Below are positions 12,239 to 63,058 of a DNA stretch of 64,000 nucleotides, piece after piece. The notes under the pieces are model-generated. The model was not told the DNA's origin. It saw nothing but the letters and a program-made list of their open reading frames with translations, and made no database searches. The first letter of the stretch is position 1, and every line of letters starts with the position of its first letter. The translations under genes were made by a program, and so were the position numbers. The stretch is from a plasmid, in the sequence record NZ_CP023526.1, one strand, 5' to 3'.

Positions 12239-12307
12239 GATGTTTCCTGTAAATAAATAATAATGTGATACCTCTGCCGGGAACCCCGGTGGCCCTGTGG
12301 GCCTTGA

Positions 12308-12604: not shown

Positions 12605-12824
12605 GACTTTCCCTCTCCCGTAATTTCCCGTGGCATGCTGCTGGCAGCGTGCCACTCTGGCTTCGGCGTACGCCCGCCCGCCTGCCCGCGGGGCCTGTTT
12701 CGCCACCCAGGACCAGACCCGGCGGCAGGCTTCTACCGTCCGGCCAGTTTTAGCCTCACCGCCACCAGGTCCCGCCCGCAGCGGCTGCTTATCTTCGCAC
12801 CTACCGTCAAAAGAAAGTTCCGAT

Positions 12825-48379: not shown

Positions 48380-48492
48380 AACGCGGCCTTTTGGCCTTTC
48401 TTCTTTCCCCCGACGTCCCCTCAACTCTCTCCCTCCGGCCTGGGCGTTCCCCGGCAATATGAAAAGCGCGATGACGTGTGATCTACAGGCTA

Positions 48493-49247
48493 CGGAGAAC
48501 TCACATAGCAGCGTGCTTCCGGTAAGCTCGTATGTTCATACTCATTTCAGGCGGTCACATCGGTGTCAGCGCCCACTGACGCACGGAGGCTTAGTGATGC
48601 AAAAATCACGGCACTCTTCATGTCGCCACTGAGTGGCAAGCCCATACCCTGCCGCGCTTCACTGAATGCTGAGGAGGCAAAATAATTCCCCGCACCCTAC
48701 AGCGTCCGTCCCCGGCCGGGCACAGCCATCCCGGAAAGCCATCGATCATCATCAACCTGCACATTCACCGGCAGTCCGGCGTCATAGCAGGCCTGGTACC
48801 ACTCCCCTACCTGACAGGCATTCCCGCTCAGCCATGCCTGTCCGCTGTTTTCACTGAACAGCGCCAGACTGACAGTGCCGTCTGTCCGGATAACAAACGC
48901 GGCCCGGCTGGCGGCATAAGGCCGGCCCCTGATGTCCACTTCAATGTCTCGCATCCCTTTCCGCTCGGGACGAAAGGGCAATATCCGGCTGCCTGCCTTT
49001 CGCTGCAGGTCGCGCTCTGCCGCCGTCAGCGACGTCGCCAGGGCACGCCCGTCCCCGGTTAGCGCAATGAATACCCGTCGGCTGGAATTTCTCTGCGTGC
49101 GGATTAATCCGGCGGACTCCAACAGTTCACAGGAATAATAAATGCTACTATTTCTGAGTGACTTCTGAATATATCTTATCGGGGAAAGTCCCGAAAAATG
49201 ACGTTCGACTGACAGAATAAAAATAAGAACTTTCTTTTGGAGATTAG
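48493..49247. repeat. Direct repeat B, copy 1 (755 bp, near-identical to 55828-56582)
   Basis: Base-by-base comparison shows identity over the whole length with at most a few mismatches. Confidence 0.9.
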
Positions 49248-49281
49248 ATAATTCTCGCTGTCTTGACATACCCGTACCCAT
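48697..49281 (-). CDS. Winged-helix (MarR-like) DNA-binding protein with an unknown C-terminal domain, copy 1
   Basis: N-terminal ...LQKKVLIFILSVERHFSGLSPIRYIQKSLRNSSIYYSCELLESAGLIRTQRNSSRRVFIALT is a wHTH pattern. The body lies inside repeat B. The N-terminus differs between copies. Confidence 0.5.
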   Translation of the reverse strand: MGTGMSRQRELSNLQKKVLIFILSVERHFSGLSPIRYIQKSLRNSSIYYSCELLESAGLIRTQRNSSRRVFIALTGDGRALATSLTAAERDLQRKAGSRILPFRPERKGMRDIEVDIRGRPYAASRAAFVIRTDGTVSLALFSENSGQAWLSGNACQVGEWYQACYDAGLPVNVQVDDDRWLSGMAVPGRGRTL

Positions 49282-49608
49282 CCTCCTGATGGTTGGTTTT
49301 ATATCACCTGCCTACTAATCCTGGAGTTTCTACAGGCAAGATATATTGGCATTATCCAGAATATCAGGCTTATGTATGCTGTATCTGAGGAGTAAAGCGC
49401 TTAGCTTAAATCGCTCAAATCGACCAAGTAATACACCGTCAACTTACCATTATCAACATTATTTTAATCACATGGTGATTTTATTGATGATAAGTAAATT
49501 ATTTAACGAATCTCTGAACACATCAATCGTGAACTGCGGTACAAGCCGGGTTGCATTGGGTATATACTGGTCAGCGTTGAGTAATTATCATGATCAGAAG
49601 GAACGACA

Positions 49609-50304
49609 ATGAACAAAGCCGTAGTAGTTTTTAGTGGGGGCCAGGACTCGACAACTTGCCTGGCTTATGCGTTACGTAAATACGAAGAGGTTCATTGTAT
49701 AACGTTCGATTACGGACAACGCCACTCCGAAGAAATCAACATAGCGAAAAAATTAGCAAAAAAATTTAATGTTTCTCATAAAGTTTTAAATACCAATATA
49801 CTTAATGATTTATCAGCAAGCAGTTTGACACGACCCAACATACCGGTGCAAAAACATGAAAGTAGTCAGGATAACACATTGCCAAACACGTTTGTCCCCG
49901 GAAGAAATATCCTATTCCTGACTCTCGCATCCATCTATGCTTATCAAATATCCGCTAAAACAGTTATTACAGGTGTAAGCGAAACAGATTTTTCTGGCTA
50001 TCCTGATTGTCAGGGAGAATTTATTAAAGCGTTAGACAAAGCCATTTCTCTAGGATTGGACAATAATATAAAAATTGAAACACCACTCCTTAATCTCACC
50101 AAAGCCGAGACTTGGGCGATGGCTGATTACTATGGCATTCTCGAAATCATAAAAAATGAGACGCTGACCTGCTACAATGGCATTAAATATGATGGGTGTG
50201 GTAATTGTCCGTCATGTTTTCTTCGTAACAGAGGATTTGATCAATATAATAAAAATCAGTTGAAAGTCATGAAGTCATTCAAAGAAAAATCCTCTTTTCT
50301 TTAA
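49609..50304 (+). CDS. queC: 7-cyano-7-deazaguanine synthase QueC
   Basis: PP-loop SGGQDSTT and the C-terminal zinc cysteines [16 protein letters not shown]. Collinear with E. coli QueC at an estimated ~60 % identity from memory. AT-rich codon usage. Confidence 0.85.
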
Positions 50305-50353
50305 AAAATAAATTTATGATGGGGCTATTTATTTCCACCCCATCATATAGATA

Positions 50354-51222
50354 TTATTTTCCTCTCTCATCTTTCACAAGAAAGCGATTAAAATAAAATC
50401 TCGTCAAATAAGCCGGGAAAACATTAAAACAAGCAAAAAAAGACTTAATAACAATCTGAATGATAGCCATTTTCATAATCACATGCAGGCTTAATTTTCC
50501 ATAGAATGCAACCAAACAAAACACAAAACTATCAATCACCGCCGCTGTCATAGTGCTAAAAAAACCCTTAAAAACAGAAACCTGGAGTTGGTAATGTTTT
50601 TTATCTTGCATAAAACATAGGAGTTAGCATTCTCTGACAAAAAGAATGATAACGATGATGCAAATACAGTGGAAATTATTTGATTTATTAACAAGCTGTA
50701 TGAAGCATTCAGCTTCCAGTCAGGGATGGATGGAAGTTTCGTCGACACACTTAATAACAAAACAATAATCAAATTAGCTGACAGAGACAAGTAAATAGCT
50801 TTTCTTGCCAGGTGCATCCCATAAAACTCACTCAGAAGATCTATAACAAGAAATGAGAACGGATAGATGAATGTGCCAGGGGTAACAACTAAATTAAATA
50901 GTTGCACAAAAACTGGTTTCGTGGCTGCTATATTACTGAAGACGTAAAAAACACTTAATAATAAAATCAAAACAGCATAAATAAACCAAGACTTTTCATT
51001 TCGATCTTCGTACTCATATACAGTTCGTGCATCTGTGCATGATGAGTAAATTTTTCGATAGATTGATTTTATTTCATATATATTTAAATTATCAATAATT
51101 TCACATTTTTCAAGTTCTTTTATATTAATCTTTATGATCTTACTGGTTGATAAGATCAAGATATTTGCAGAGTTATCGGCTTTATTAAATCCGAGAAGCT
51201 TATATTTACTCCCCATAGTCAA
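50354..51222 (-). pseudogene. YhhQ/DUF165-family transporter, apparently frameshifted (two overlapping ORFs, 50548-51222 and 50354-50611)
   Basis: TPGTFIYPFSFLVIDLLSEFYG parallels E. coli YhhQ TWGAFSFPFIFLATDLTVRIFG. The C-terminal part continues in another frame. Confidence 0.55.
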
Positions 51223-51814
51223 ATCGCTCCTCTATTATATCACCAACAAAAACACTCCCATTACCTTCTAAAAAAGAAGCAGATCCGATGTAAAATTCAT
51301 TTTTTATACCATGATAATTAAGCTCATTCTCACTTTCATCTTTTCTTCCTCTCTTAACGAGCAACAAATCTCCCGCATTATATTTCCCTTCAATATCCTT
51401 TTCTAAAACAATCCCTATAACATTAGATTCACAGCCAAAATAAAAAGTTAGTTTTCTCTCAGAAACGAGCATGCCTATTTTTTTATTCAAGAAATCCAGT
51501 GAACTACATTCTGATTGGAAAAACACAGGTACCGCACAAGGGTTCATATTTCCATCTAGAGAAATCACTGTGTCAATACGTTCTTTTTCTTCAATATCCA
51601 AACTTTCTATTTCTTTGTAGGACACACCAAAAAAATCTGATACTTTCTGTATAGTTGACTGATGAACATTTGATACCCTACCGTCAAGTATATTATAAAT
51701 TGTTGTTCTGTTGAGACCGGTGCGATCGCATAAAGAAACCCGGGTTTCCCCTCTTGAACTTAATAGATAGTGTAAATTTTTCTTAACAAATTCTATTTTT
51801 TGTTTTTTATGCAC
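51206..51814 (-). CDS. CI/LexA-like repressor (XRE HTH + S24-like C-terminal domain), second copy of this architecture
   Basis: N-terminal HTH (RVSLCDRTGLNRTTIYNILDGR) and a C-terminal beta-rich domain (GDLLLVKRGRK). It overlaps the downstream yhhQ start. Confidence 0.55.
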   Translation of the reverse strand: MHKKQKIEFVKKNLHYLLSSRGETRVSLCDRTGLNRTTIYNILDGRVSNVHQSTIQKVSDFFGVSYKEIESLDIEEKERIDTVISLDGNMNPCAVPVFFQSECSSLDFLNKKIGMLVSERKLTFYFGCESNVIGIVLEKDIEGKYNAGDLLLVKRGRKDESENELNYHGIKNEFYIGSASFLEGNGSVFVGDIIEERFDYGE

Positions 51815-52459
51815 ACGACCCTCCCTGTAGAAATATCTTAACCTTAAAAAGGAGATTGAACCCCTGAATGATATGGTGCACAGGAATAAAACATAACAGC
51901 ATGTTATACAAACTCTATCCGTAAAACAAAGTCGAAGAAGTCCTTGCGTATTTCATTCCCACACAGCCGCAAGGAGGACTTAGTATTTACATACTCATCT
52001 GATATATAAACAGTAAACATCATGTGTGATATTCATCTCAATTGCTAAGTCAGCATGGAGGTCTCCTCAGTCCAGGCCTGCCAGGTATCATTTGTCCCTG
52101 CGGCTCACTGCGGCTGTGTTTGCCCCGGTGCAGGGATTTCTGCCATATCATAAAACACAGTACATGTACGGCGGTTTCATCAAGCTACGCAAATGTGTGT
52201 TCAATAAGGGATGAAGAGATACATCCGGCATAACGGCGATCTCACTGACACGCCGACAAGGCGAGCCTCAACCCGGCAGTATTTCCCGCCCACTGCACCT
52301 TCACGAGATACGCAGCTGTGGGAATTTTATCTTTGATGACAGACCCAGCCGGTCAGACCCTCGTCTGAAAATTCTGTTTCTTATCAAGAAGGGGGCCCGT
52401 ATACAGATCTTGCCTCTAACTGGGGGACGTCTCAGGGAAGCGCCTTGGTATCCAGAGAA

Positions 52460-53194
52460 TTACTTTAGCTGAAGGGCAAACAGCGCAGAATATCCACCGT
52501 CCATCACGATGTCACTCCCTGTCATGAAGTCATTCTGGAGTAGAAAATGTATTGCCGACCAGACATCCTCTACCGTTCCACACCGTCCCGTCAGATAGGC
52601 CTGGCTGTAGTCTGGCAGATGGCCAGCATATTTATTGCGGATCATTGGTGTATCAATTGTTGCGGGGGAAATGGAGTTAATCAGGATCCCTGGTGCAAAC
52701 TCGACGGCACAAACCTTTGTCAGATTGACAATCGCCGCTTTAGCACTGCTGTAGGCCGCCATCCCTTTAGCTCCTACAGAGGCCGTTGAGCTTGCAACAT
52801 TGACTATCTTGGACACAACACCATTACCCTGCATTTTTCTGGCTTCCAGTTTACAGGCATGAAAAGCAGGCATAAAAATTTGACGATAAGACTGAACCAT
52901 TTCAGTGGAAGCAAGATCTGAAAGGGGTTTTCTGACCCCAGTCACCCCCGCGCAGTTAACGGCGTAGTCCAGTGATTCTATACGGGCAAACGCTTGCTCG
53001 GCCTCTTCCCAGTTTGACAAGTCACATATTATTTGCGTTATCGACTTATCCAGCACATCGGAAAAAATTGTATCCATACCGATAACATTGAATCCCGCAT
53101 GATAAAACTGTACAGCGGCATAGCGACCAATGCCACTGGCATGTCCGGTCACGAGAACAGTACGTTTTATTTTTTCAGCCTCCGCCACTTGCAT
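52460..53194 (-). CDS. Short-chain dehydrogenase/reductase (SDR)
   Basis: VTGHASGIG Rossmann motif and YSSAKAA catalytic motif. Confidence 0.7.
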   Translation of the reverse strand: MQVAEAEKIKRTVLVTGHASGIGRYAAVQFYHAGFNVIGMDTIFSDVLDKSITQIICDLSNWEEAEQAFARIESLDYAVNCAGVTGVRKPLSDLASTEMVQSYRQIFMPAFHACKLEARKMQGNGVVSKIVNVASSTASVGAKGMAAYSSAKAAIVNLTKVCAVEFAPGILINSISPATIDTPMIRNKYAGHLPDYSQAYLTGRCGTVEDVWSAIHFLLQNDFMTGSDIVMDGGYSALFALQLK

Positions 53195-53232
53195 GTCACT
53201 GCCAACCTTTGTCCTTTGCTTCATGCCCCATG

Positions 53233-53607
53233 CTATGGTTTAAACTCAAGGGCGACATGAACGAATACCTTTCTCACCGCCTCTGACGGTGCGGGTAACA
53301 CAGCCCCGCTCACATCGCCCATGGCAGCTCGACACAGTTCAAGGTTGCCATGTTCATACTTCACGGTTTTCTCCTCCATATTCAACCGTAGCGTGCAGGT
53401 CTTGCCCCGCCACTGGTCAATATCAAAGAAATTTTGTTCAATTGCCCGACTGAGTAAACCGGCATATTCATTCGGGTTATCACCGGTATATTTATCCCCA
53501 AAATGAATGGGCGCATCCGGAGGGGGGGTTGTTACTGTTCTATGCTGACAACCTGCAACCGACAAGCATCCTGATAATATCAAAGTCCTCAGTCCGAACC
53601 GTGTCAT
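53233..53607 (-). CDS. Lipoprotein carrying a TolA C-terminal (domain III)-like domain
   Basis: Lipobox LSGCLSVAGC. The C-terminal 80 aa (EYAGLLSRAIEQNFFDIDQWRGKTCTLRLNMEEKTVKYEHGNLELCRAAMGDVSGAVLPAPSEAVRKVFVHVALEFKP) align with E. coli TolA domain III (YAGQIKSAIESKFYDASSYAGKTCTLRIKLAPDGMLLDIKPEGGDPALCQAALAAAKLAKIPKPPSQAVYEVFKNAPLDFKP), including both Cys residues. Confidence 0.6.
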   Translation of the reverse strand: MTRFGLRTLILSGCLSVAGCQHRTVTTPPPDAPIHFGDKYTGDNPNEYAGLLSRAIEQNFFDIDQWRGKTCTLRLNMEEKTVKYEHGNLELCRAAMGDVSGAVLPAPSEAVRKVFVHVALEFKP

Positions 53608-54174
53608 CGCTCAGCCTTTGTCACCACATTAAAGAGAATGCAGTTTTGCCTGTGATTCCCTTCTTAGTCAAATGCCGGTTCTTAAACCAGCTGATTTTTT
53701 CAGAGAATTCGGGCTTTATCGCCCAGACAGGTAATGAACGTTATTTTATTAAAGAATTCAGACACAACTCCCGGCGGATAACAGCACTTCAGTTGCCGAA
53801 TACAGAAAATAATTGACCGTTCAATACCGTATAAAAGCATCGAAAGCATTATTGATTACGGTTGAAGTACTACAGCTAAATCCACGATACAGTGTCCTGC
53901 CTGAGCACGCGGGGCAGTGATATACGTGATAAAATCTGAGGATTAGTATTAATTCTGTATGGCCCGGAACAGACCACGTCCTGCAGCACTCATTATGGTA
54001 AGCATCACCCGTCACCGCTTCACCGGCAACAGCAGGGTGAAGTCTGGATATTCACTATTCCTGTCGCTCGCCGGAACAGAGATAAGGCGCAATTTCAGGC
54101 AAGAGGGAGCTTAAGAGAGAAAGCTTCGCAATATGAGACACCGACCTAAGGCGCTCAAATTTTTTTCTTAAGTA

Positions 54175-54639
54175 TCAGTTCTTTAATTTATCCCACTTTA
54201 CAGCGACGACAATACTCCAGTTTCCCTCGGAGTTAGGCCTGCGCCATTTCGCCTTTTCCATAATACGCAGATATTCGAGTGCCTCGGAGAAAGAAAAAAA
54301 ACGCTTTTGCGCCGTTTTATCGCCCACGCCAAACGAGCCATCGCGAGAACTCGCCAGTCCGGGATGAAAGCAAGTGCCATCTGCTGCATAGGGAACCAGC
54401 AATTCAGGATCGTTCTCTTCCGTTGAATCCGTTATCAGTAGTTGCCACGGTTCGACGCGAAGCGCTTTTGCAAGCCGGTCTATCGCATCCAGAGAAACAT
54501 TCGCACCACCACGCTCAACTCTGCTCATGTAGCTACGCGCAAACCCACAGCTATCAGCAAATGCTTCCTGGCTCATTCCGGTACTGATGCGCAACGCTTT
54601 GACACGCTTGCCAAACAATGTGCTTAAGGACTTTTTCAT
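54175..54639 (-). CDS. XRE-family HTH protein with an unknown C-terminal domain
   Basis: HTH LRISTGMSQEAFADSCGFARSYMSRVERGGANVSLDAIDRLAKAL. Start MKKSLSTL. Confidence 0.5.
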   Translation of the reverse strand: MKKSLSTLFGKRVKALRISTGMSQEAFADSCGFARSYMSRVERGGANVSLDAIDRLAKALRVEPWQLLITDSTEENDPELLVPYAADGTCFHPGLASSRDGSFGVGDKTAQKRFFSFSEALEYLRIMEKAKWRRPNSEGNWSIVVAVKWDKLKN

Positions 54640-54894
54640 GCCCTGAATGTGCAATTTTGAGCACCACAAGAGCCACGCTCTAATAGTGACATTTCGAATC
54701 AAAATTATTTGTTTTGTGATCGCGCGTAGATTAAATCTGATCTTTGTCCTGCTAACATCGGAAGAATCAAATTAAACCCTAAAAAAGACATTTTAAATCA
54801 AGCTGACCTCCATCCATCACCGGGTAAAACCGATACGTGAAACATCAAAGGAAAGTGATCAGCGCACGATTATTAGCCGCGTCGTCGGCACCTT

Positions 54895-55796
54895 ACGTTC
54901 TGCCCTGGGGCGGCACACCCGTCCCGCCTAATCCTCACCCTCACATCAGGAGATACCCTGTGAACACCCCCCTTTCTGTACCCCGTCACCCGCTTCAGGG
55001 CAAAGTCATCGCCATCACCGGGGCCGCCTCCGGGATCGGCCTCGCCTGTGCCTCCGCCTTTCTTGCCGCCGGGGCCCGTGTTGTCATGATTGACCGCGAC
55101 GTCGGAGCCCTCCTCCACCACGCAGATACCCTCGGAGAGCACGCCCTGCCCCTGCCGGCCGACATCACCGACCCTGACCAGGCCGACGGTCTCGCTGACC
55201 ACATCCTCTCCCTCGCCGGACGCCTCGATATCTTCCATGCCAACGCCGGCATGTACACCGGTGGCCCCTTCGTCGACACCGACCCCGACACCATCGCGAA
55301 GCTCCTCGACCTCAACGTCACCGCCACTTTTCGCTGTATCCGCGCTGTCCTCCCCGCCTTTATCGCCCGACGCGGCGGGGATATCCTCCTCACCAGCTCC
55401 GTCGCCGGGGTCGTCCCTGTGGCACACGAGCCCGTCTATACCGCCTCCAAGTTTGCCCTCCAGGGCTTCGTCCACAGCCTCCGCCGGCAGCTCTCTCCCC
55501 ACGGGGTCCGCGTCGGGGCCATCCTTCCCGGCCCGGTCAGCACCGCCCTGCTCACCGCCTGGCCCGAGGCAAAACGCCGTGAGGCCCTGGAGACCTGCGC
55601 CCTCCTGCAGCCCGCTGATGTCGCCGAAGCCGCGCTCTTTATGGTCACCCGGCCCCACGACGTCGTCATCCGGGATCTTGTGATCCTCCCGGCCGGGGTA
55701 GATCTCTGACGCCTTCCTGCCCGGATACTCAGACAGCTGCTCTCACGGAGACCTCAACGACGCCGGGAACCCGGCCCCGGCGCCTGAGGACAAGTC
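54895..55796. repeat. Direct repeat C, copy 1 (about 900 bp, about 66 % GC)
   Basis: Near-identical to 62155-63058. Confidence 0.9.
54960..55709 (+). CDS. GC-rich short-chain dehydrogenase/reductase (SDR), copy 1
   Basis: GTG start after an AGGAGA RBS. TGAASGIG Rossmann motif and YTASKFA catalytic motif. Lies within repeat C. Confidence 0.7.
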   Translation: MNTPLSVPRHPLQGKVIAITGAASGIGLACASAFLAAGARVVMIDRDVGALLHHADTLGEHALPLPADITDPDQADGLADHILSLAGRLDIFHANAGMYTGGPFVDTDPDTIAKLLDLNVTATFRCIRAVLPAFIARRGGDILLTSSVAGVVPVAHEPVYTASKFALQGFVHSLRRQLSPHGVRVGAILPGPVSTALLTAWPEAKRREALETCALLQPADVAEAALFMVTRPHDVVIRDLVILPAGVDL

Positions 55797-55827
55797 CAGT
55801 TACTCTGGCTATTTGCAATCTGAGGCT

Positions 55828-56582
55828 GCGGAGAACTCACATAGCAGTGTGCTTCCGGTAAGCTCGTATGTTCCATACTCATTTCAGGCGGTCACATCGG
55901 TGTCAGCGCCCACTGACGCACGGAGGCTTAGTGATGCAAAAATCACGGCACTCTTCATGTCGCCACTGAGTGGCAAGCCCATACCCTGCCGCGCTTCACT
56001 GAATGCTGAGGAGGCAAAATAATTCCCCGCACCCTACAGCGTCCGTCCCCGGCCGGGCACAGCCATCCCGGAAAGCCATCGATCATCATCAACCTGCACA
56101 TTCACCGGCAGTCCGGCGTCATAGCAGGCCTGGTACCACTCCCCTACCTGACAGGCATTCCCGCTCAGCCATGCCTGTCCGCTGTTTTCACTGAACAGCG
56201 CCAGACTGACAGTGCCGTCTGTCCGGATAACAAACGCGGCCCGGCTGGCGGCATAAGGCCGGCCCCTGATGTCCACTTCAATGTCTCGCATCCCTTTCCG
56301 CTCGGGACGAAAGGGCAATATCCGGCTGCCTGCCTTTCGCTGCAGGTCGCGCTCTGCCGCCGTCAGCGACGTCGCCAGGGCACGCCCGTCCCCGGTTAGC
56401 GCAATGAATACCCGTCGGCTGGAATTTCTCTGCGTGCGGATTAATCCGGCGGACTCCAACAGTTCACAGGAATAATAAATGCTACTATTTCTGAGTGACT
56501 TCTGAATATATCTTATCGGGGAAAGTCCCGAAAAATGACGTTCGACTGACAGAATAAAAATAAGAACTTTCTTTTGGAGATT
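55828..56582. repeat. Direct repeat B, copy 2
   Basis: As above. It lies 31 bp after the end of repeat C copy 1. Confidence 0.9.
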
Positions 56583-56606
56583 CGTTAACTGTTGCTTTTT
56601 TATCAT
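56034..56606 (-). CDS. Winged-helix DNA-binding protein with an unknown C-terminal domain, copy 2
   Basis: Identical to copy 1 except for the first 10 or so residues. Confidence 0.5.
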   Translation of the reverse strand: MIKKQQLTNLQKKVLIFILSVERHFSGLSPIRYIQKSLRNSSIYYSCELLESAGLIRTQRNSSRRVFIALTGDGRALATSLTAAERDLQRKAGSRILPFRPERKGMRDIEVDIRGRPYAASRAAFVIRTDGTVSLALFSENSGQAWLSGNACQVGEWYQACYDAGLPVNVQVDDDRWLSGMAVPGRGRTL

Positions 56607-56754
56607 GCCTTTTTACTTTATCCTGACTGTGGTTTTCTGTTTATCGTTATCTGCCATATCCATGATGATACAAACTATCATTCTCGGCCAAAGCAGAAAC
56701 TATACCTGTTGACCATTATATGTAATATGCAGGAATGATAATAAAGATCCACAT

Positions 56755-56804
56755 TATGTAGGGTTCATTTTGTGTAGAGTACGTTTTATGTAGGGTGTTT
56801 TTTA
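56755..56804. promoter_or_regulatory. Three tandem ~17-bp iteron-like direct repeats (T[AG]TGTAG[GA]GT core) upstream of the tandem LuxR-type genes
   Basis: ttatgtagggttcattt / tgtgtagagtacgtttt / atgtagggtgtttttt, immediately 5' of the ORF at 56820. Confidence 0.45.
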
Positions 56805-56819
56805 TCCGGGAGTTTTATC

Positions 56820-57503
56820 ATGGCAATAGCTTCGTTACCCGAAAACTTAATCCAGATGTTTGAAAATGATCCCATTGTTGGATGGGCAGTAAAAGATAAA
56901 GAGTCTCATTTCGTTTACGTAAATAAGGCTTTTAAAATATGGCAAACAATTTCAACGCATTATGACTATGAAGGACTTAAAATTAATGACATTCCGGTTC
57001 CTGTGGCTGAGTTCTCAGATCTGTTTGAACAGCAGGAAAGATACATTGAAGACTCAGGAAAACCCGTACGGGCAATTACAACCCATATTCAGGGCAAAGA
57101 GAAAATCATGCAACCCGCATACAACATTCAGGAACCATTATTTGATGAAAAAAACATTTGTAATGGCACGCTTATAAGCGTAAGGCATGTCAACATCATC
57201 ACGCCGACATCACTCCTCGCAGGGAAAATAAAGCAACATGCAATTTTCCAGGCACCCTCAGTGATATTTACAGAAAAAGAATGGGAAATGGTCTATCTAC
57301 TACAGTGTGATTTCAGCCTTAAAGAAATTAGTAGCATCCTTGGTATTTCTGTTAACGCCATTAACGGAAGATTGAGAAGTTGCTTTAAAAAAATTGGGGC
57401 AAACTCATCATCATCTTTGATTGAGTTTTGCAAATGCAACGGGATGGATAATTACATCCCACAATTCTTTTTAAAAAAGGGGCATATTATCGTTACTGAC
57501 TGA
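56820..57503 (+). CDS. LuxR/GerE-type HTH regulator with an unknown N-terminal domain (paralog 1)
   Basis: C-terminal TEKEWEMVYLLQCDFSLKEISSILGISVNAINGRLRSCFKKIG HTH. Confidence 0.55.
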   Translation: MAIASLPENLIQMFENDPIVGWAVKDKESHFVYVNKAFKIWQTISTHYDYEGLKINDIPVPVAEFSDLFEQQERYIEDSGKPVRAITTHIQGKEKIMQPAYNIQEPLFDEKNICNGTLISVRHVNIITPTSLLAGKIKQHAIFQAPSVIFTEKEWEMVYLLQCDFSLKEISSILGISVNAINGRLRSCFKKIGANSSSSLIEFCKCNGMDNYIPQFFLKKGHIIVTD

Positions 57504-57512
57504 GGGTTATCC

Positions 57513-58157
57513 ATGGATTTTTATTTTAAAAGATCGTTGTTTGGATGGGCCATAAAAGACAACGCATCGCGATATATTTATGTTAACGATTTAGCCTGTC
57601 AATATTTCAATATATCAGCAACCAGAATCATGGGCCGCATAGACACTGAACTAATCCCTGATATTGGAGAGCATTACAAATACATATTACGCGATGACAA
57701 TGAGATAATCAAAAACAAAAAAATGAGCATTGTGCTGAAAGTATTCAATTATGGAAATGAAGGCAAGTTGCGTGCCTATCTGGTAGAAAAAAGACCCTGG
57801 CCGTTACAGAATGGTTCAACAGGCATCATTTGTACCTACATTGAACTCACTAATGTCTATCTGTCCTCATTCTTCGATAATATCTATCGTAAACCCCTTA
57901 TCTTCACCAGACCATCCCCTCTTTTTACCGATCGCGAATGGGAGATAATACTCTTACTGTTATGCGGAGTTAAACGCAAAGGCATATCCGAAATTCTTGG
58001 TATTAGCTACATAACACTAAGAAACCGCATAATACTCTGCTGCGAAAAGTCCGGAGTGCTGAATTATACCCAGCTGCTCAAATATATCCGTACTCAGGGT
58101 TGGGATAACTATATTCCACCGTTTTTTTTAAAGCAGGGGCATATGATCCTTGTTTAA
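57513..58157 (+). CDS. LuxR/GerE-type HTH regulator (paralog 2, tandem to 56820-57503)
   Basis: Same architecture. The shared C-terminal motif DNYIPxFFLKxGH shows the two genes are paralogs. Confidence 0.55.
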   Translation: MDFYFKRSLFGWAIKDNASRYIYVNDLACQYFNISATRIMGRIDTELIPDIGEHYKYILRDDNEIIKNKKMSIVLKVFNYGNEGKLRAYLVEKRPWPLQNGSTGIICTYIELTNVYLSSFFDNIYRKPLIFTRPSPLFTDREWEIILLLLCGVKRKGISEILGISYITLRNRIILCCEKSGVLNYTQLLKYIRTQGWDNYIPPFFLKQGHMILV

Positions 58158-58639
58158 CCTAACTTTGCCTCTGTCGACCAAATGCCATGTGATCACCTGT
58201 CATACAGTGAACGCCTTTAATGCAAAAAATTTTGAATCTGGTATCCGCTATTTTTAGCGGTTCAGTTCAGGGCTGAGAATGACGCAAGTGCGCCGACCAG
58301 TTACGGGAGTATGGGTCGGGTCATACCGTTGGCCACAATCAGTGCCGTACTCAGTACAGGGGCAACGGCAGCCGTCAGGAGCAACGATCCGCAAGTAAAC
58401 AGGTCTGATGCTGTGGGCAGCCTGGCGCTCATGGCTTCCCTGCACATTTAGCGCCGGAGCCTACCCCACCCTCGCTGGTCCGAAGACCCCATACGTCATT
58501 CAAGACCACCGTCGGAAACTTCGCATGCAAAGTTCGTGCACGCCCGATATTCTGAAAAGTCGCGGCAATCTGCCGGCGGGACACAGAACCACATTCAGAA
58601 AAGACTCGCTGCATATTGTGAATAATTTTTCGTTTTTTC

Positions 58640-59165
58640 CCGGTTAAACATGCAGGATTGTCGGGCCATACTCTGATATTTGAAGTGGTCGGAATGGAAT
58701 ACTGTCTTTCAGGTTTTAACGGCGAACGTCTGGATCCGGTCAAGAGGCATTATCATCCTGGGAACGGTTACCGGGGTTACAGTCCTGTACTGGGACGTTT
58801 TACCCGGCCAGATTTATATAACCCCTTTGGCAAGGGTGGTATTAACCCCTACGTTTACTGCACCGGGGATCCGATCAACCGGGATGACCCGTCAGACCAT
58901 TTCAGCCAGGGTAAGTGACTGGGTTTAGGTATCGGGTTTATTGCAGCGAAAGCCTTCAGTCTCGCGACAGAGAGGAGCACCATGCTGGGTGATTCGGCCA
59001 TTGGGGCAGGCTCTGAGCTCACAGAGGATCGTGTCGACCAACAGCGTGTGAACTGGATCCAGATGAATCTTTCTGCAAGGCTAAACGCCACCACCACACT
59101 GGCCGGATTTGGTCTGGGGAGGTTTGGACCAGTAATCTCTTTGTTCGTTCCGCGTCAGGTCTGAG
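58640..59165 (+). pseudogene. Orphan Rhs/YD-repeat C-terminal core fragment with an in-frame stop, followed by a short Gly-rich hydrophobic CT tip
   Basis: LDPVKRHYHPGNGYRGYSPVLGRFTRPD...GGINPYVYCTGDPINRDDP matches the Rhs core end (xDPxGL context degenerated to DPSDH). A TGA stop follows, then in-frame LGLGIGFIAAKAFSLA.... Confidence 0.55.
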
Positions 59166-59614
59166 TCTGTTTACACTCTCCTTTAACACTGTCCGGATTT
59201 TTGACTGGAGTCAGAAAAATGGAAATCTTAAAAGTGCATGGAACTGAAAGGGGTGCGTTCACACATCCTAAGTCAAAAAAGTTGGTGAACTGAACGGAAT
59301 AGGTGTTGGCCTGCATCATGTACTTAAACGCACGTTGTGTAGCTTCATAGTTCACCTGTTCTGCGCGCTAAACGGGCGCCCAGTACAAGATAACTGGTCT
59401 GGTAGACTCAATATGCAAGCACGTCGTCTGTTAATAAGTGTCGGTTTTGTGCCATAGATATTCCCACCTCCACTTCTGCATTTTCAGAATTGGCCATCAC
59501 TTTTCTCGCGACGCCCCCCATTAGTCCCTCAGACGTTATTCTGCCATCAAGACCATCTCCTCAAGCAAGATCAATCGTTAGGCCGGCATCATCAAAAAAT
59601 CGTATGCAGATGTA

Positions 59615-60826
59615 TTGTGTTTTTACTCTTTTCGCCATAAATTGAAAAAAGTAATACAAACTACTACAACGGGTTTGATCATGCACTCACTGACAAAGAT
59701 TCTGAGCTCACTACTCACTGGCGGACAGGAACGAGCACTAAAAGTAATGGATGAAGAGGAGGATGGCCGCAAAGAAGTGACATCCATACGTCTAAAACCT
59801 CAGACGCGGGCGTACTTACAGGCGCAGAGTGAAGTGCTTGGAATTTCGGTTTCACAGTTTATAAACATCATTGTTGATGGAGTGGTAAATATCGAGACGT
59901 CACCACACCAGAGTCGAATAGATACTATTTATGACCGACTGATGTTGCTGTTCGAAATCAATGGAATTGGACCATTAGAAATGAGCCAGATACTGGCTGA
60001 GTATGGGCTAACGCTGTCAAAACTTAAATCACGTGATGCAACACTTGATCTTCTGACTCCGGAGTTACTTAAGAACGTCAGCAACTGGTTCGGTGTACAG
60101 CAATCCTGGCTTAGCGCAAAAAGCGAGGGCGTATTCCCCACGCGCGCTCTCCACTGGTATAAAAATACCGAGGGAATGGCAGCTTCAATTATTGAAAGAA
60201 ACATTGAGTATGGCGATCTTGATGTTTATATCATCAAGAATGCTGGCGTGAGCTTCGAGCAGGCCGAAAAATATGATGACTATGAGAACAATTTGGGTAT
60301 GGGGTTTGTACTCGAGTACCGCACTAAGATAGGCAGCGCCAGCATCTGTCGGTATGAGTTTTGCGAATTTCAGCGCTGGAACTACATTCGGTGTCGCAAT
60401 GACCTGAAGCTGATATTCAGGTTCCTTCACGAGCTTGAACAAAAACGTGCTGCCATCCGTGTTCACGGCTGTACGGTAAAAGAAGCAATATTTGAAAGGA
60501 TCTATAATGGTCGTATCCTTCCAGACCAGCTTAGAATTGCCCTGAACAACGCTGCGTGGTGGGATCCCCGTATCATAACAGAAGATGTTGCGGTCAATTA
60601 TAGTGAGATGAAATTCAGCAAGTTCGTGACGGCCTACTGCGAGCTCCCTATGAAAACAATAAGGCCGGTTTATAACCAGTATTCCAGCAACCCTGAGGCC
60701 TGGACCGTAACGTTATGGAAAGATGATTCCGGGGAACAGAAATACCATTCATTACGTGAAGCGCTGGAAGACAGTTTCAGGCGATATCACAGCACTGATT
60801 TTCCTTCACCAGATGGTGATTGTTAG
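59615..60826 (+). CDS. Hypothetical protein with an N-terminal ribbon-helix-helix (CopG/Arc-like) motif and a ~300-aa unknown C-terminal domain (alternative start at 59681)
   Basis: TSIRLKPQTRAYLQAQSEVLGISVSQFINIIVDGV fits the RHH beta-alpha-alpha pattern. The rest has no recognisable motif. Confidence 0.45.
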   Translation: MCFYSFRHKLKKVIQTTTTGLIMHSLTKILSSLLTGGQERALKVMDEEEDGRKEVTSIRLKPQTRAYLQAQSEVLGISVSQFINIIVDGVVNIETSPHQSRIDTIYDRLMLLFEINGIGPLEMSQILAEYGLTLSKLKSRDATLDLLTPELLKNVSNWFGVQQSWLSAKSEGVFPTRALHWYKNTEGMAASIIERNIEYGDLDVYIIKNAGVSFEQAEKYDDYENNLGMGFVLEYRTKIGSASICRYEFCEFQRWNYIRCRNDLKLIFRFLHELEQKRAAIRVHGCTVKEAIFERIYNGRILPDQLRIALNNAAWWDPRIITEDVAVNYSEMKFSKFVTAYCELPMKTIRPVYNQYSSNPEAWTVTLWKDDSGEQKYHSLREALEDSFRRYHSTDFPSPDGDC

Positions 60827-61233
60827 CTGAAGATCAGTGAGCTTATAAGATTTTTTATAGCGTGGGTTCCGAAGCAACCAATACATTTCAAACTAACTCG
60901 TTTCTTATGTGTTTCACATTATCAGTAATGCTAGTAACTTACTGATATTTAAATCGGTAAGGCTAAAATAACTATCCTTATGAATCATTAAAAGCTTACC
61001 TTAACTAAACTCATAAATAGGCTCGTTGAGCCTATTTAACATTGATAAACCCCTCGAAAAAACAATACTTTTATATCTTTCTGCTATTTTTACAGGTTAA
61101 GGGATCTTTTTCATTCTGACCAGTACTCGTCGCCAACGCCTGCCTGTTTTGCACAGGGCTCGCCACATCGGCAGTACAGATATTTATAGATACCATGTTC
61201 AGCAATGGTGAGGCATCAGTCAGGCAACCGCCA

Positions 61234-61731
61234 CTAAGGTACGATGTCAATATCGAACTCACCCTGTAGCTTCTGACGCTGCTCGGTTGAGAGACGACTA
61301 ATTTTCAGTGCAATATTCATTATAGAAGGCGACAGATCCCGCAGAGATTCCACGGTGCTGTCTGCATACTGTGCGGATAACACTCTCATTGCCTGCATGA
61401 TGACCAGATGGCGCTGCGCTTCCGAAATATGTCGGAACAACATTGTCAGCAGAGCAATATCGTCTTCAACTCCTGCGGGTTCTGCCCACTCACCCTCCTC
61501 TCCCAGGAACCATGCCGCACTTACCCCAGTTGCTTTTGCAAGTTTCTTCAGTTGTAAAATGCTGGGGAATGACTCGTGCTTTAAATATCCCCTGATGGCC
61601 GCCTCAGATAACCCCGATTTACGCGCCAGAGAGCTCTTGGTATAGCCAGACATTTCCATGGCCACAGACAACCGTGATCCAAACATGTTCTCATCCGCAG
61701 GTTCAGTCAACTGACTGCCTTTTTTCACCAT
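61234..61731 (-). CDS. XRE-family HTH protein with a C-terminal extension
   Basis: HTH LSVAMEMSGYTKSSLARKSGLSEAAIRGYLKHESFPSILQLKKLAKATGVSAAWFLG. Confidence 0.5.
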   Translation of the reverse strand: MVKKGSQLTEPADENMFGSRLSVAMEMSGYTKSSLARKSGLSEAAIRGYLKHESFPSILQLKKLAKATGVSAAWFLGEEGEWAEPAGVEDDIALLTMLFRHISEAQRHLVIMQAMRVLSAQYADSTVESLRDLSPSIMNIALKISRLSTEQRQKLQGEFDIDIVP

Positions 61732-62154
61732 CTCGTTCTACTCTTAACCGTTTGATTTAACAAGAATATCAATTCAAAAACTCATCAAATCGAAATATTT
61801 TTCGAAAATTAAATTTATTTCGCATTAAATATCGATATCATGTCAGTATAAATTGCAGACAGTTTCCCTCTGCAGATTCAAACACTGAGCATCGCACAGC
61901 CCGGGCGAAATTGCCATGCACGCGTACGTGCCATCAAAGGCAACGTCCAGGCACTGTGTAGCCTGACCGAACCCCGGCTTCACGCAAGTCCGGCCTTCGA
62001 ATTTCAGACACACCACATCGTATACCCGCCAGCCCTGTTTCATCCGGCAGGGGCTCCTGCGCGCGCTGGCATTCTACCATGTCCGACATGAGACGAAGGA
62101 GAGACAAGCCACATGACTCACACCGACGGGCACCAGCCCGACATCTGGCCCGCA

Positions 62155-63058
62155 TACGTTCTGCCCCGGGGCGGCACACCCGTCCCGCCTGGTCCTCACC
62201 CCCACATCAGGAGATACCCTGTGAACACCCCCCTTTCTGTACCCCGTCGCCCGCTTCAGGGCAAAGTCATCGCCATCACCGGGGCCGCCTCCGGGATCGG
62301 CCTCGCCTGTGCCTCCGCCTTTCTTGCCGCCGGGGCCCGTGTTGTCATGATTGACCGTGACGTCGGAGCCCTCCTCCACCACGCAGATACCCTCGGAGAG
62401 CACGCCCTGCCCCTGCCGGCCGACATCACCGACCCTGACCAGGCCGACGGTCTCGCTGACCACATCCTCTCCCTCGCCGGACGCCTCGATATCTTCCATG
62501 CCAACGCCGGCATGTACACCGGTGGCCCCTTCGTCGACACCGACCCCGACACCATCGCGAAGCTCCTCGACCTCAACGTCACCGCCACTTTTCGCTGTAT
62601 CCGCGCTGTCCTCCCCGCCTTTATCGCCCGACGCGGCGGGGATATCCTCCTCACCAGCTCCGTCGCCGGGGTCGTCCCTGTGGCACACGAGCCCGTCTAT
62701 ACCGCCTCCAAGTTTGCCCTCCAGGGCTTCGTCCACAGCCTCCGCCGGCAGCTCTCTCCCCACGGGGTCCGCGTCGGGGCCATCCTTCCCGGCCCGGTCA
62801 GCACCGCCCTGCTCACCGCCTGGCCCGAGGCAAAACGCCGCGAGGCCCTGGAGACCTGCGCCCTCCTGCAGCCCGCTGATGTCGCCGAAGCCGCGCTCTT
62901 TATGGTCACCCGGCCCCACGACGTCGTCATCCGGGATCTTGTGATCCTCCCGGCCGGGGTGGATCTCTGACGCCTTCCTGCCCGGACACTCAGACAGCTG
63001 CTCTCACGGAGACCTCAACGACGCCGGGAACCCGGCCCCGGCGCCTGAGGACAAGTCC
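62155..63058. repeat. Direct repeat C, copy 2
   Basis: Near-identical to 54895-55796. Confidence 0.9.
62221..62970 (+). CDS. GC-rich SDR, copy 2 (identical protein apart from about 1 residue)
   Basis: Within repeat C copy 2. Confidence 0.7.
   Translation: MNTPLSVPRRPLQGKVIAITGAASGIGLACASAFLAAGARVVMIDRDVGALLHHADTLGEHALPLPADITDPDQADGLADHILSLAGRLDIFHANAGMYTGGPFVDTDPDTIAKLLDLNVTATFRCIRAVLPAFIARRGGDILLTSSVAGVVPVAHEPVYTASKFALQGFVHSLRRQLSPHGVRVGAILPGPVSTALLTAWPEAKRREALETCALLQPADVAEAALFMVTRPHDVVIRDLVILPAGVDL

What the first reader, a model, noticed from the sequence alone, without database searches (positions are those of the whole stretch)
53233..53607. Lipoprotein with a TolA domain-III-like C-terminus: possible decoy or mimic of the phage/colicin receptor domain
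The last ~80 residues align convincingly, by eye, with E. coli TolA C-terminal domain III, including YAG...AIE..F.D...GKTCTLR...LC.AA...P.S.AV..VF.....EFKP and both cysteines. Here the domain is fused to a lipoprotein signal peptide instead of the TolA TM-helix-II scaffold. TolA-III is the docking site for filamentous-phage g3p and for group A colicin translocation domains, and it contacts TolB/Pal. An envelope-tethered free copy could act as a decoy that blocks phage or colicin entry, or could modulate the Tol-Pal system. I am not aware of a characterised stand-alone TolA-III lipoprotein.
Basis: partly seen in the sequence, partly recalled or inferred. Interest (0 to 1): 0.65.

Follow-up and report, generated by a model that had tools for sequence, protein, structure and literature searches.

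The report
Outer-membrane lipoprotein copy of TolA's head
This small gene encodes only the tip domain of the envelope protein TolA, the part that colicins and filamentous phages grab to enter cells, fused to a lipoprotein anchor; it belongs to a widespread, uncharacterised family carried by prophages, bacteriocin plasmids and genomic islands, and most likely acts as a decoy.

Summary
The minus-strand ORF 53607-53233 encodes a 124-aa protein with a lipoprotein signal peptide (VAG|C20, +2 Gln) and a TolA C-terminal domain. Support: Pfam PF06519 at E=1.3e-9; E. coli TolA-III structures at E~3e-13; AlphaFold model matching 2x9a/3qdp/1tol at TM 0.80, rmsd 2.0 A. It lacks TolA's membrane helix and domain II and scores far below the NCBIfam TolA cut-offs, so the database name "TolA" is wrong.

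It is not unique. Exhaustive HMMER found dozens of 110-160-aa proteins with an invariant lipobox Cys and a TolA-III domain (PHROG 5772, "unknown function"). Members sit in E. coli lambdoid prophages (888 of 5426 complete genomes), about 366 Klebsiella 10-kb bacteriocin plasmids, Citrobacter prophages and chromosomal islands. Two relatives fuse TonB_C to TolA_C behind one lipobox. No functional study was found.

The window copy (Cedecea neteri) is a rare, divergent member. It lies in a 5.6-kb low-GC cassette beside an aryl-polyene cluster, 8 nt upstream of an SDR gene that is not a conserved partner.

Best reading (inferred, about 0.45): an outer-membrane-tethered TolA-III mimic that captures TolB N-termini and bacteriocin or phage TolA-binding strands, blocking Tol-dependent import. 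Main rival: deliberate Tol-Pal inhibition causing leakiness or release.

The parts
53233..53607 (-). Complete CDS of the 124-aa TolA-III lipoprotein, including the TAG stop at 53233-53235
   Evidence: ORF list and sequence. An identical protein, P0001, occurs in Cedecea neteri GCA_900461005.1 and in two Logan assemblies.
53551..53607 (-). Signal peptide, residues 1-19 (MTRFGLRTLILSGCLSVAG): an n-region with two Arg, a hydrophobic core and the lipobox V-A-G
   Evidence: Read from the sequence. Lipobox register fixed by the family alignment and by a regex survey of 43 relatives.
53548..53550 (-). Cys20, the predicted lipid-modified first residue of the mature protein. The +2 residue is Gln, so outer-membrane sorting by the Lol +2 rule is predicted.
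   Evidence: Invariant column in 28 of 28 homologues. None of 43 lipobox relatives has Asp at +2. The sorting rule itself is established knowledge and was not tested here.
53488..53547 (-). Short Pro-rich tether (residues 21-31) plus the subfamily-specific motif PIHFGDKYTG (residues 33-42), modelled as an extra beta-strand (residues 32-39)
   Evidence: AF2 secondary structure and pLDDT of 89 for the residue 31-40 block. The motif is conserved only with P0002.
53236..53487 (-). TolA C-terminal (domain III) fold, residues 41-124: helix 45-57, strands 71-76 and 81-87, helix 89-101, helix 109-114, C-terminal strand 117-122 (VALEFK), and the disulfide pair C71/C92
   Evidence: Pfam, PDB phmmer, AF2, Foldseek and residue mapping onto E. 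coli numbering.
53615..53618 (-). Putative Shine-Dalgarno AAGG, 7 nt upstream of the ATG
   Evidence: Read from the sequence. The simple consensus scan found no sigma-70 promoter in the 567-bp upstream spacer.
52460..53224 (-). Cytoplasmic short-chain dehydrogenase gene starting 8 nt after the stop codon. It is probably co-transcribed but is not a conserved partner.
   Evidence: Pfam adh_short/adh_short_C2 and NCBIfam generic SDR. It is absent next to the closest homologue P0002 and next to all other relatives examined.
49246..54893 (.). 5.6-kb low-GC (41%) accessory cassette that carries the gene. It is bounded by repeat Y (48487-49245) and repeat X (54894-55797), and both repeats recur around a second cassette (55823-63058).
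   Evidence: Self-BLAST, GC values, and a Logan contig that equals 49216-54971 exactly.

Best explanation
The gene encodes an outer-membrane-anchored, free-standing copy of the TolA head domain that works as a molecular mimic or decoy. After Sec export, lipidation at Cys20 and Lol sorting to the inner leaflet of the outer membrane, a tether of about 12-20 residues holds a TolA-III fold just under the outer membrane. There it offers the same edge strands that native, inner-membrane-anchored, PMF-energised TolA uses for beta-strand augmentation. It therefore competes for the N-terminus of TolB and for the TolA-binding epitopes of incoming Tol-dependent (group A-type) bacteriocins and filamentous-phage pIII proteins. 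Because the mimic is not coupled to TolQR, anything it captures is not pulled inward, so import stalls. The result is bacteriocin tolerance or superinfection exclusion, at the cost of some Tol-Pal inhibition. Shown here: domain identity, fold, lipobox, family distribution and contexts. Inferred: outer-membrane localisation, ligand binding and the protective phenotype.
For: 1. The fold and sequence are TolA-III.
2. The beta3 edge strand and helix that bind g3p-N1, ColN and TolB in E. coli TolA (A415-K420 and G334-E349, per PMC4339652; PMC7391070) are retained. The window protein has Y48 A49 G50 ... A55 I56 E57 and V118 A119 L120 E121 F122 K123 P124. There is no proline at the positions equivalent to D418 and K420, where proline substitution abolishes binding.
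3. The lipobox Cys is invariant, and no relative has Asp at +2.
4. Relatives sit where protective accessory genes sit. In E. coli lambdoid prophages the gene lies between Q and the lysis genes, with a consensus-like promoter of its own (10 of 12 matches) and a downstream terminator. It is present in 888 of 5426 complete E. coli genomes and 127 IMG/VR contigs. Citrobacter koseri prophages carry two copies. About 366 Klebsiella 10-kb ColE-type plasmids carry it next to a cloacin/colicin-E3-like bacteriocin with a Gly-rich N-terminal domain.
5. Two relatives (P0009, P0036) fuse TonB_C and TolA_C behind one lipobox. This makes sense if the job is to mimic the heads of both import energisers.
6. 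Engineered free periplasmic TolA-III is biologically active in E. coli. RBP-signal-TolAIII makes the outer membrane leaky (PMC6195910 citing Wan & Baneyx 1998). From my own knowledge, Levengood-Freyermuth et al. 1993 reported colicin and phage tolerance; that paper could not be read here.
Against: No experiment or expression data exist for this gene or any relative; ten literature searches found none. The window copy is not in a prophage or bacteriocin plasmid, and no bacteriocin gene was seen among the window ORFs I scanned. It is a divergent member. It has a 4-residue deletion in the beta1-beta2 hairpin and GNL in place of the near-invariant GDP, and D98, R112, V116 and H117 sit at otherwise conserved positions. 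The model shows an extra N-terminal strand (residues 32-39) that could cap a binding edge itself, so its ligand range may differ or be self-limited. TolA-TolB affinity is low (40-200 uM), so a decoy would need high local concentration. Some relatives are chromosomal orphans next to flagellar, fimbrial or efflux genes, which argues neither for nor against a defence role.
Confidence: 0.45

Rival explanations
1. It is a Tol-Pal modulator rather than an import blocker. The tethered TolA-III sequesters the TolB N-terminus at the outer membrane and so acts as a dominant negative on Tol-Pal. This deliberately loosens the outer membrane to increase vesiculation, periplasmic leakage, or release of bacteriocin or phage progeny. 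Any tolerance to colicins would be a side effect.
For: Free periplasmic TolA-III causes outer-membrane leakiness and release of periplasmic protein. The E. coli prophage copy lies between Q and the holin, where late-transcribed lysis-associated genes lie. The Klebsiella plasmids that carry it also encode a bacteriocin and its release (lysis) protein. The Tol-Pal review notes that modulating TolB-TolA interactions could regulate OMV production (PMC7391070).
Against: The TonB_C+TolA_C fusion lipoproteins are hard to explain by Tol-Pal loosening alone. The prophage copy has its own promoter-like site and terminator, like a gene expressed in lysogens. On the plasmid it lies upstream of the bacteriocin operon on the opposite strand, not within it. 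A constitutively leaky envelope would be costly for chromosomal orphans such as the window copy.
Confidence: 0.25
2. It is a hitch-hiking or decaying accessory gene with no current function in this Cedecea strain. It arrived as cargo of a horizontally acquired cassette and persists by drift.
For: The gene is extremely rare. Its 90%-identity cluster holds 3 member sequences on 3 contigs, out of a collection of 15 billion protein sequences. The scan of 185,579 species-representative genomes confirmed only one relative, in Enterobacillus tribolii, so no representative, including those of Cedecea species, carries a copy that matches the search patterns. The gene lies in a 41%-GC mosaic cassette within a region full of mobile-element remnants (IS66, a TraI fragment, ArdC). 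No consensus promoter was detected upstream.
Against: The ORF is intact and has a start codon, an SD, a canonical lipobox and both disulfide cysteines. The model folds confidently. The Enterobacillus orthologue at 45% identity preserves the lipobox, the PIHFG[DE]KYTG motif and the C-terminal EF.P, which indicates purifying selection over a long divergence.
Confidence: 0.15
3. It is an envelope-stabilising paralogue that helps Tol-Pal instead of competing with it, for example as an outer-membrane docking site that concentrates TolB or TolB-Pal near particular sites or under stress.
For: Several relatives are chromosomal and adjacent to envelope machinery: between fliE and yedD, after a fimbrial usher, and after an EmrAB-OEP efflux operon. 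The domain retains the TolB-binding strand.
Against: Without coupling to TolQR no force can be transmitted, and force is the point of the TolA-TolB contact (PMC7391070). Every known effect of uncoupled TolA-III is inhibitory. The strong association with prophages and plasmids is unexplained by this reading.
Confidence: 0.08
4. It is simply TolA, or a truncated tolA pseudogene, as the public annotation ('cell envelope integrity inner membrane protein TolA') says.
For: The database name. The best NCBIfam hits are the TolA equivalogs.
Against: The scores are 43.9 bits against a cut-off of 213 (NF007065) and 27.6 against 59.45 (TIGR02794), and only the last ~85 profile positions match. There is no TM helix or SHLS motif and no Ala/Lys/Glu-rich domain II. 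There are no tolQ, tolR, tolB or pal neighbours. The protein has its own lipoprotein signal, which is conserved across the family, so it is not a fragment.
Confidence: 0.02

Closest known systems
TolA domain III (E. coli TolA residues ~325-421; Pfam PF06519; PDB 1TOL, 1S62, 2X9A, 3QDP/3QDR)
   Same: Same fold, about 41-43% identity, same disulfide, and the same C-terminal beta3 strand ending in FKP that accepts TolB, g3p-N1 and ColN by strand addition.
   Different: It has no inner-membrane anchor, no TolQR coupling and no domain II. It is tethered by a lipid to the (predicted) outer membrane instead. It has a 4-residue shorter beta1-beta2 hairpin and an extra N-terminal strand motif.
PHROG 5772 / NCBI 'cell envelope integrity TolA C-terminal domain-containing protein' (short TolA-III lipoproteins of prophages, ColE-type plasmids and islands)
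   Same: Same architecture of lipobox, variable linker and TolA-III. The window protein hits the PHROG profile at E=6e-14.
   Different: The window protein and its one orthologue form a divergent, very rare branch, about 28-34% identical to the other short family members over the full-length alignment. It sits in a non-phage, non-plasmid cassette and has a shorter linker. The family itself has no assigned function.
Engineered periplasmic TolAIII (Levengood-Freyermuth, Click & Webster 1993; Wan & Baneyx 1998 RBPss-TolAIII)
   Same: A free TolA head exported to the periplasm and uncoupled from TolQR. It produces outer-membrane leakiness and, by recollection, colicin and phage tolerance. This is the laboratory precedent for the proposed mechanism.
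   Different: It is artificial, soluble and over-expressed. The natural protein is lipid-anchored, and its expression level is unknown.
Phage lipoproteins that block entry at the envelope (Cor of HK022/phi80/N15, Llp of T5) and prophage-encoded mimics of host envelope parts (phage FimU, PMC12952977)
   Same: These are small proteins encoded by mobile elements, predicted to sit at the outer membrane, that interfere with a host import route used by competitors. The phage FimU case shows the principle of mimicking a host component.
   Different: There is no sequence or fold relationship. Cor and Llp bind the receptor FhuA, whereas here the protein would imitate the periplasmic energiser head. Only signal-peptide-level similarity to Cor was seen, and only for one relative.

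Membership tests
TolA C-terminal domain (Pfam PF06519) | Profile score above the gathering threshold | tested here: met
   38.5 bits against a cut-off of 25, E=1.3e-9, covering profile positions 7-95 of 96.
TolA C-terminal domain (Pfam PF06519) | TolA-III three-dimensional fold | tested here: met
   AF2 model with pLDDT 84-90 over the domain. The top seven PDB hits are all TolA-III; the best has target-normalised TM 0.80 and rmsd 2.0 A.
TolA C-terminal domain (Pfam PF06519) | Conserved disulfide pair and a C-terminal edge strand without backbone-blocking prolines | tested here: met
   C71 and C92 align with E. coli C363 and C388. L120-E121-F122-K123-P124 aligns with L417-D418-F419-K420-P421.
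Bona fide TolA (NCBIfam NF007065 / TIGR02794 equivalogs) | Whole-protein score above the curated cut-off | tested here: not met
   43.9 bits against 213, and 27.6 against 59.45. Only the C-terminal ~85 profile positions align.
Bona fide TolA (NCBIfam NF007065 / TIGR02794 equivalogs) | N-terminal inner-membrane helix (SHLS motif) and a long Ala/Lys/Glu-rich domain II | tested here: not met
   The protein is 124 aa. Residues 1-20 are a lipoprotein signal and residues 21-40 a Pro-rich tether.
Bona fide TolA (NCBIfam NF007065 / TIGR02794 equivalogs) | Location in the tolQ-tolR-tolA-tolB-pal-cpoB cluster | tested here: not met
   The neighbours are an SDR, HTH regulators, QueC and a preQ transporter.
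Bacterial lipoproteins (Lgt/LspA substrates) | Signal peptide ending in the lipobox [LVI][ASTVI][GAS]C | tested here: met
   V17-A18-G19-C20 follows a 10-residue hydrophobic core. The Cys is invariant in 28 of 28 homologues, and 43 relatives have lipoboxes. Actual lipidation was not tested.
Bacterial lipoproteins (Lgt/LspA substrates) | Outer-membrane sorting (no Lol-avoidance Asp at +2) | tested here: met
   The +2 residue is Gln, and 0 of 43 relatives have Asp at +2. This is a sequence rule only; localisation cannot be tested with these tools.
PHROG 5772 (phage TolA-III lipoproteins, unknown function) | Significant match to the family profile over the domain | tested here: met
   E=6e-14, 53.3 bits, residues 39-124 against profile positions 38-128 of 128. 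The phage mEp460 protein scores 1.6e-62. The match does not cover the N-terminal third.
Superinfection-exclusion / bacteriocin-tolerance determinants | Demonstrated protection against a phage or bacteriocin | not testable with these tools
There is no PADLOC model hit and no functional paper was found.
Superinfection-exclusion / bacteriocin-tolerance determinants | Carriage on a prophage or bacteriocin plasmid | tested here: not met
   This is met by relatives but not by the window copy, which sits in a chromosomal cassette bounded by repeats.

The most novel reading that the evidence does not exclude
Mobile elements of Enterobacterales carry a general, so far unrecognised class of envelope immunity. 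These are lipid-tethered (and some soluble) mimics of the heads of the two import energisers, TolA and TonB, including TonB_C+TolA_C fusions. They intercept the strand-augmentation epitopes of incoming bacteriocins and phage proteins at the outer membrane. The effect would be broad, toxin-domain-independent tolerance to Tol- and Ton-dependent bacteriocins and to phages that need these systems. The Cedecea protein would be a divergent member whose extra N-terminal strand tunes or gates the binding edge.
Probability: 0.35. Interest if true: 0.75.

Novelty: new variant of a known kind. Interest (0 to 1): 0.58.

Why it matters
TolA-III is the best-studied periplasmic docking site for colicins and filamentous phages. 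In the laboratory, an uncoupled copy perturbs the envelope. A natural lipid-anchored copy carried by mobile elements would be a ready-made, genetically simple way to block a whole import route, unlike classical immunity proteins, which neutralise a single toxin.

That would affect three things:
- predictions of bacteriocin and phage sensitivity, which matter for klebicin and colicin therapeutics against Klebsiella and E. coli;
- the ecology of bacteriocin plasmids and prophages;
- genome annotation, because about 16% of complete E. coli genomes and hundreds of Klebsiella plasmids carry a gene that PGAP calls 'tolA' although it cannot be TolA.

The hypothesis can be tested with a plasmid and spot assays.

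Tried and rejected
1. Nucleotide searches of the locus against E. coli genomes and plasmids found no match.
2. The first word-indexed protein search found only the gene's own cluster. The exhaustive HMMER search was needed to see the family.
3. I tested whether the downstream SDR is a functional partner. It is rejected, because it is absent next to the closest homologue and next to all other relatives examined.
4. I tested whether the 81-aa ORF beside the Klebsiella plasmid copy is a TolB fragment, as one paper's wording suggested. By eye its translation is a basic, Arg/Lys/Glu-rich sequence that does not look like TolB; no profile search was run on it.
5. The search for related loci failed with the 28-sequence alignment because no stretch was conserved enough. 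With the two-sequence alignment it found only Enterobacillus tribolii.
6. The BFVD viral structure library gave no match, and PADLOC gave none for the TolA-like proteins.
7. A neighbour-joining tree of the domain was star-like. Real TolAs nested among lipoprotein lineages, so I draw no conclusion on one versus several origins.
8. Ten literature searches found only passing mentions of plasmid 'tolA' (PMC6807383, PMC10269471) and no functional work. Levengood-Freyermuth 1993 and Cascales 2007 are not held.
9. I could not determine where the extra N-terminal strand docks, because model coordinates are not returned.
10. The Rfam and promoter scans of the upstream spacer found nothing.

Full report
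**1.

The ORF lies on the minus strand, running 53607 to 53233 with a TAG stop at 53233-53235. It encodes 124 residues and has an AAGG 7 nt upstream of the ATG.

- Pfam TolA_C (PF06519) matches residues 39-121 at E=1.3e-9, 38.5 bits against a gathering score of 25.
- phmmer against PDB sequences aligns residues 41-124 end to end with E. coli TolA 333-421 in 1s62, 3qdp, 2x9a and 1tol, at E=3e-13 to 2e-12.
- An AlphaFold2 model built on 26 family sequences has pLDDT 84-90 over residues 31-124.
- Foldseek against the PDB returns only TolA-III structures at the top. The best is 2x9a_B at E=2e-7, target-normalised TM 0.80, rmsd 2.0 A and 41% identity. TonB-CTD follows far behind.

Both were tested and both failed to refute.

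**2. It is a lipoprotein, and it is not TolA**

The N-terminus is MTRFGLRTLILSGCLSVAG|CQHR. It has two Arg, a hydrophobic core and the canonical lipobox V-A-G-C.

A second LSGC at C14 would leave a 13-residue signal, which is too short. The family alignment places the invariant Cys at C20. The +2 residue is Gln. By the enterobacterial Lol rule (established knowledge, not tested here), this predicts the inner leaflet of the outer membrane.

The mature protein consists of:
- a Pro-rich tether (residues 21-31);
- the motif PIHFGDKYTG, modelled as an extra strand at residues 32-39;
- the TolA-III fold.

It fails every feature that defines TolA itself:
- NCBIfam TolA equivalogs score 43.9 bits against a cut-off of 213, and 27.6 against 59.45.
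- There is no membrane helix and no domain II.
- There are no tol-pal neighbours.

The public name 'cell envelope integrity inner membrane protein TolA [Cedecea neteri]' is therefore a misannotation.

**3. Where the gene sits**

The window is 99.98% identical to Cedecea neteri GCA_900461005.1, contig UAVU01000009.1.

- An aryl-polyene biosynthetic cluster occupies about 34-48.4 kb at 58% GC.
- Immediately after it comes an unusual tandem arrangement:
  - repeat Y, 48487-49245;
  - cargo A, 49246-54893, at 41% GC;
  - repeat X, 54894-55797, at 67.5% GC, an SDR gene;
  - repeat Y again, 55823-56582, 99.6% identical;
  - cargo B, 56583-62154, with two LuxR-type regulators (one with a PAS_4 domain), a 403-aa ORF and an HTH gene;
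  - repeat X again, 62155-63058, 99.0% identical.
- Cargo A holds QueC, a YhhQ-family queuosine-precursor transporter, an HTH protein, an SDR, the TolA-III lipoprotein and an HTH_31 controller-like protein.
- An independent Logan contig equals cargo A exactly.
- The rest of the window carries IS66, a TraI fragment, ArdC, a DsbA/ScsC-like gene and tRNAs, which looks like island or ICE debris.

The SDR starts 8 nt after the lipoprotein's stop codon, so co-transcription is likely. It is absent from every other family context, so I do not treat it as a partner.

**4. The gene is not unique; it belongs to an uncharacterised family**

Exhaustive phmmer over 1.84 billion representatives gave 50 hits at E<=1e-3. 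Most are 110-160 aa.

- In an alignment of 28 of them the invariant columns are the start Met, the lipobox Cys, Y48, G68, the two disulfide Cys, G87 and P105.
- A scripted survey found 43 lipobox-bearing relatives and none with Asp at +2.
- PHROGs holds the family as phrog_5772, 'unknown function'. The window protein scores E=6e-14 and the phage protein 1.6e-62.
- PADLOC has no model for it.

Contexts found for family members:

| Host and element | Position | Evidence |
|---|---|---|
| E. coli lambdoid prophages | 142-aa gene between antiterminator Q and the holin/lysozyme. A TTGAGC-18-TATAAT site lies 30 nt upstream and a terminator follows the next ORF, which is moron-like. | |
| Same E. coli gene, prevalence | 888 of 5426 complete genomes, named 'tolA' by PGAP; 127 IMG/VR contigs | |
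| Citrobacter koseri lambdoid prophages | Two divergent copies in the nin region next to dinI | |
| Same Citrobacter prophages | A 109-aa TonB_C protein after the lysis genes | |
| About 366 Klebsiella ~10-kb mobilisable ColE-type plasmids | 123-aa copy upstream of a bacteriocin operon. Its 561-aa toxin has the Gly-rich N-terminal domain typical of cloacin/colicin-E3-type (Tol-dependent) bacteriocins. | |
| Unidentified Enterobacterales (metagenome contigs) | Between fliE and yedD | |
| Serratia fonticola chromosome | After a fimbrial usher | |
| Closest homologue P0002 (45% identity over the pairwise alignment; Enterobacillus tribolii-like) | After a MarR-OEP-EmrAB operon | |

There are also soluble secreted stand-alone TolA-IIIs (P0006, P0007, P0034). 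Most tellingly, two lipoproteins fuse TonB_C and TolA_C (P0009, P0036).

**5. Literature**

Ten full-text searches found no functional study. Two papers mention the plasmid 'tolA' in passing as an accessory gene (PMC6807383; PMC10269471).

**6. How it most likely works**

Established facts:
- TolB's N-terminus, g3p-N1 and colicin N bind TolA-III by beta-strand addition to beta3 (A415-K420), with helix G334-E349 also contacting g3p-N1. D418P and K420P abolish binding. Colicin A adds to the opposite edge, beta2 (PMC4339652; PMC7391070).
- The TolA-TolB contact is where PMF-derived force is applied.
- A free periplasmic TolA-III makes the E. coli outer membrane leaky. From my recollection of Levengood-Freyermuth et al. 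1993, which I could not read here, it also renders cells tolerant to colicins and Ff phage.

Mapped onto the window protein, the helix keeps Y48, A49, G50, A55, I56 and E57. The terminal strand is V118-A119-L120-E121-F122-K123-P124, with no proline at the two critical backbone positions.

From this I infer that a TolA head tethered under the outer membrane and uncoupled from TolQR competes with native TolA for TolB N-termini and for incoming TolA-binding epitopes, so Tol-dependent import stalls. The prophage and bacteriocin-plasmid contexts and the TonB_C+TolA_C fusions fit an import-blocking role. My confidence is about 0.45.

The steps that remain inferred are lipidation and outer-membrane location, ligand binding, and any phenotype.

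**7. Rivals**

- **Purposeful Tol-Pal inhibition, for leakiness, vesicles, or release of bacteriocin or phage (0.25).** It is supported by the leaky phenotype of free TolA-III and by the position next to lysis or release genes. It is weakened by the TonB fusions, by the gene's own promoter and terminator in the phage, and by its placement outside the bacteriocin operon.
- **Hitch-hiking gene without current function in Cedecea (0.15).** It is supported by extreme rarity and the mosaic context. It is opposed by the intact ORF and by conservation of the lipobox and the PIHFG[DE]KYTG motif at 45% identity.
- **A helper of Tol-Pal (0.08).**
- **Real TolA or a fragment of it (0.02).** This was refuted in section 2.

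**8. Peculiarities of the window copy**

It shares the following only with P0002, except for the hairpin deletion, which P0032 also has:
- a 4-residue deletion in the beta1-beta2 hairpin, which removes the otherwise invariant Gly;
- GNL in place of GDP;
- the conserved pre-domain motif that AlphaFold models confidently as a strand.

Model coordinates are not returned, so I cannot say whether this strand caps the beta3 edge, caps the beta2 edge, or pairs with the short strand at residues 103-106. If it caps beta3, the protein would be self-occupied, and its mechanism would need rethinking. A neighbour-joining tree of the domain was star-like and does not resolve whether the lipoproteins arose once or several times from enterobacterial TolA.

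**9. Verdict**

The feature is real and the annotation is wrong. The architecture is a new deployment of a well-known domain, but the family is already catalogued (without function) and common. The specific gene is a rare divergent member in an ordinary-looking accessory cassette.

I rate it a new variant of a known kind, with interest 0.58. The value lies in the family-level hypothesis, which is cheap to test and relevant to bacteriocin and phage sensitivity in E. coli and Klebsiella.

Noticed in passing
window 48487-63058: Two accessory cassettes sit in tandem, each bounded by the same two repeats. The layout is Y (48487-49245), cargo A, X (54894-55797), Y' (55823-56582, 99.6% identical), cargo B, X' (62155-63058, 99.0% identical). 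It looks like two alleles of one variable locus joined head to tail, next to the aryl-polyene cluster.
   Followed up: partly
P0009 (235 aa) and P0036 (204 aa); loci L098 1856-2563 and L099 308-922: Lipoproteins that fuse a TonB C-terminal domain and a TolA C-terminal domain behind one lipobox (Pfam TonB_C E=3e-12 and 3e-16; TolA E=2e-32 and 7e-24). P0009 lies next to an N6/N4 DNA methyltransferase on a short contig.
   Followed up: partly
L091-L094 6491-6895 (-) (6491-6967 in L094) and 7001-7396 (+); L093 12651-12980: Citrobacter koseri lambdoid prophages carry two divergently transcribed TolA-III genes next to dinI. They also carry a 109-aa stand-alone TonB_C protein after the lysis cassette, which PHROGs labels 'Rz-like spanin'. 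Similar TonB_C mini-proteins occur in Klebsiella temperate phages.
   Followed up: partly
window 49609-51814: A very low-GC (33%) trio: QueC (7-cyano-7-deazaguanine synthase), a queuosine-precursor transporter (Vut_1/YhhQ family) with an ~85-residue N-terminal extension whose ORF overlaps that of an upstream 202-aa HTH protein. This may be a preQ0-related accessory module.
   Followed up: no
E. coli complete genomes and Klebsiella plasmids: There is systematic misannotation. PGAP names the 142-aa prophage lipoprotein (888 of 5426 genomes) and the 123-aa plasmid lipoprotein 'tolA: cell envelope integrity protein TolA'.
   Followed up: yes
L003 4915-4944 and 6074-6091: The E. coli prophage copy has a near-consensus sigma-70 promoter-like site (TTGAGC-18-TATAAT) 30 nt upstream and a terminator-like hairpin after the next ORF (a 131-aa hypothetical). 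This is the classic 'moron' layout.
   Followed up: partly
window 473-677 (-) and 10610-10813 (+); 1201-1503 vs 9937-10243: Two inverted copies of the sRNA STnc100, with 79%-identical inverted flanks, bracket a ~10-kb segment. That segment contains tRNA genes (one with an odd anticodon call at 1685-1758), a DUF535 gene, an IS66 transposase and a kinase fragment.
   Followed up: no
window 11396-13589 and 29784-30878: Conjugative-element debris is present: a DsbA/ScsC-like thiol oxidoreductase, a C-terminal fragment of relaxase/helicase TraI at 60-66% GC, and an ArdC antirestriction/metallopeptidase gene beside tRNA-Met.
   Followed up: no
window 54175-54702 (-): The HTH_31 protein upstream of the lipoprotein gene matches PADLOC restriction-modification 'control protein' models (E=2e-19) and has a ~75-residue C-terminal extension. 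No R-M genes are adjacent.
   Followed up: no
P0005 (323 aa), P0006, P0007, P0020, P0022, P0034: There are secreted, non-lipoprotein stand-alone TolA-III proteins. One (P0005) has two TolA/TonB-like modules joined by an Ala/Lys-rich linker, and two (P0020, P0022) have a long coiled-coil-like N-terminal region.
   Followed up: no
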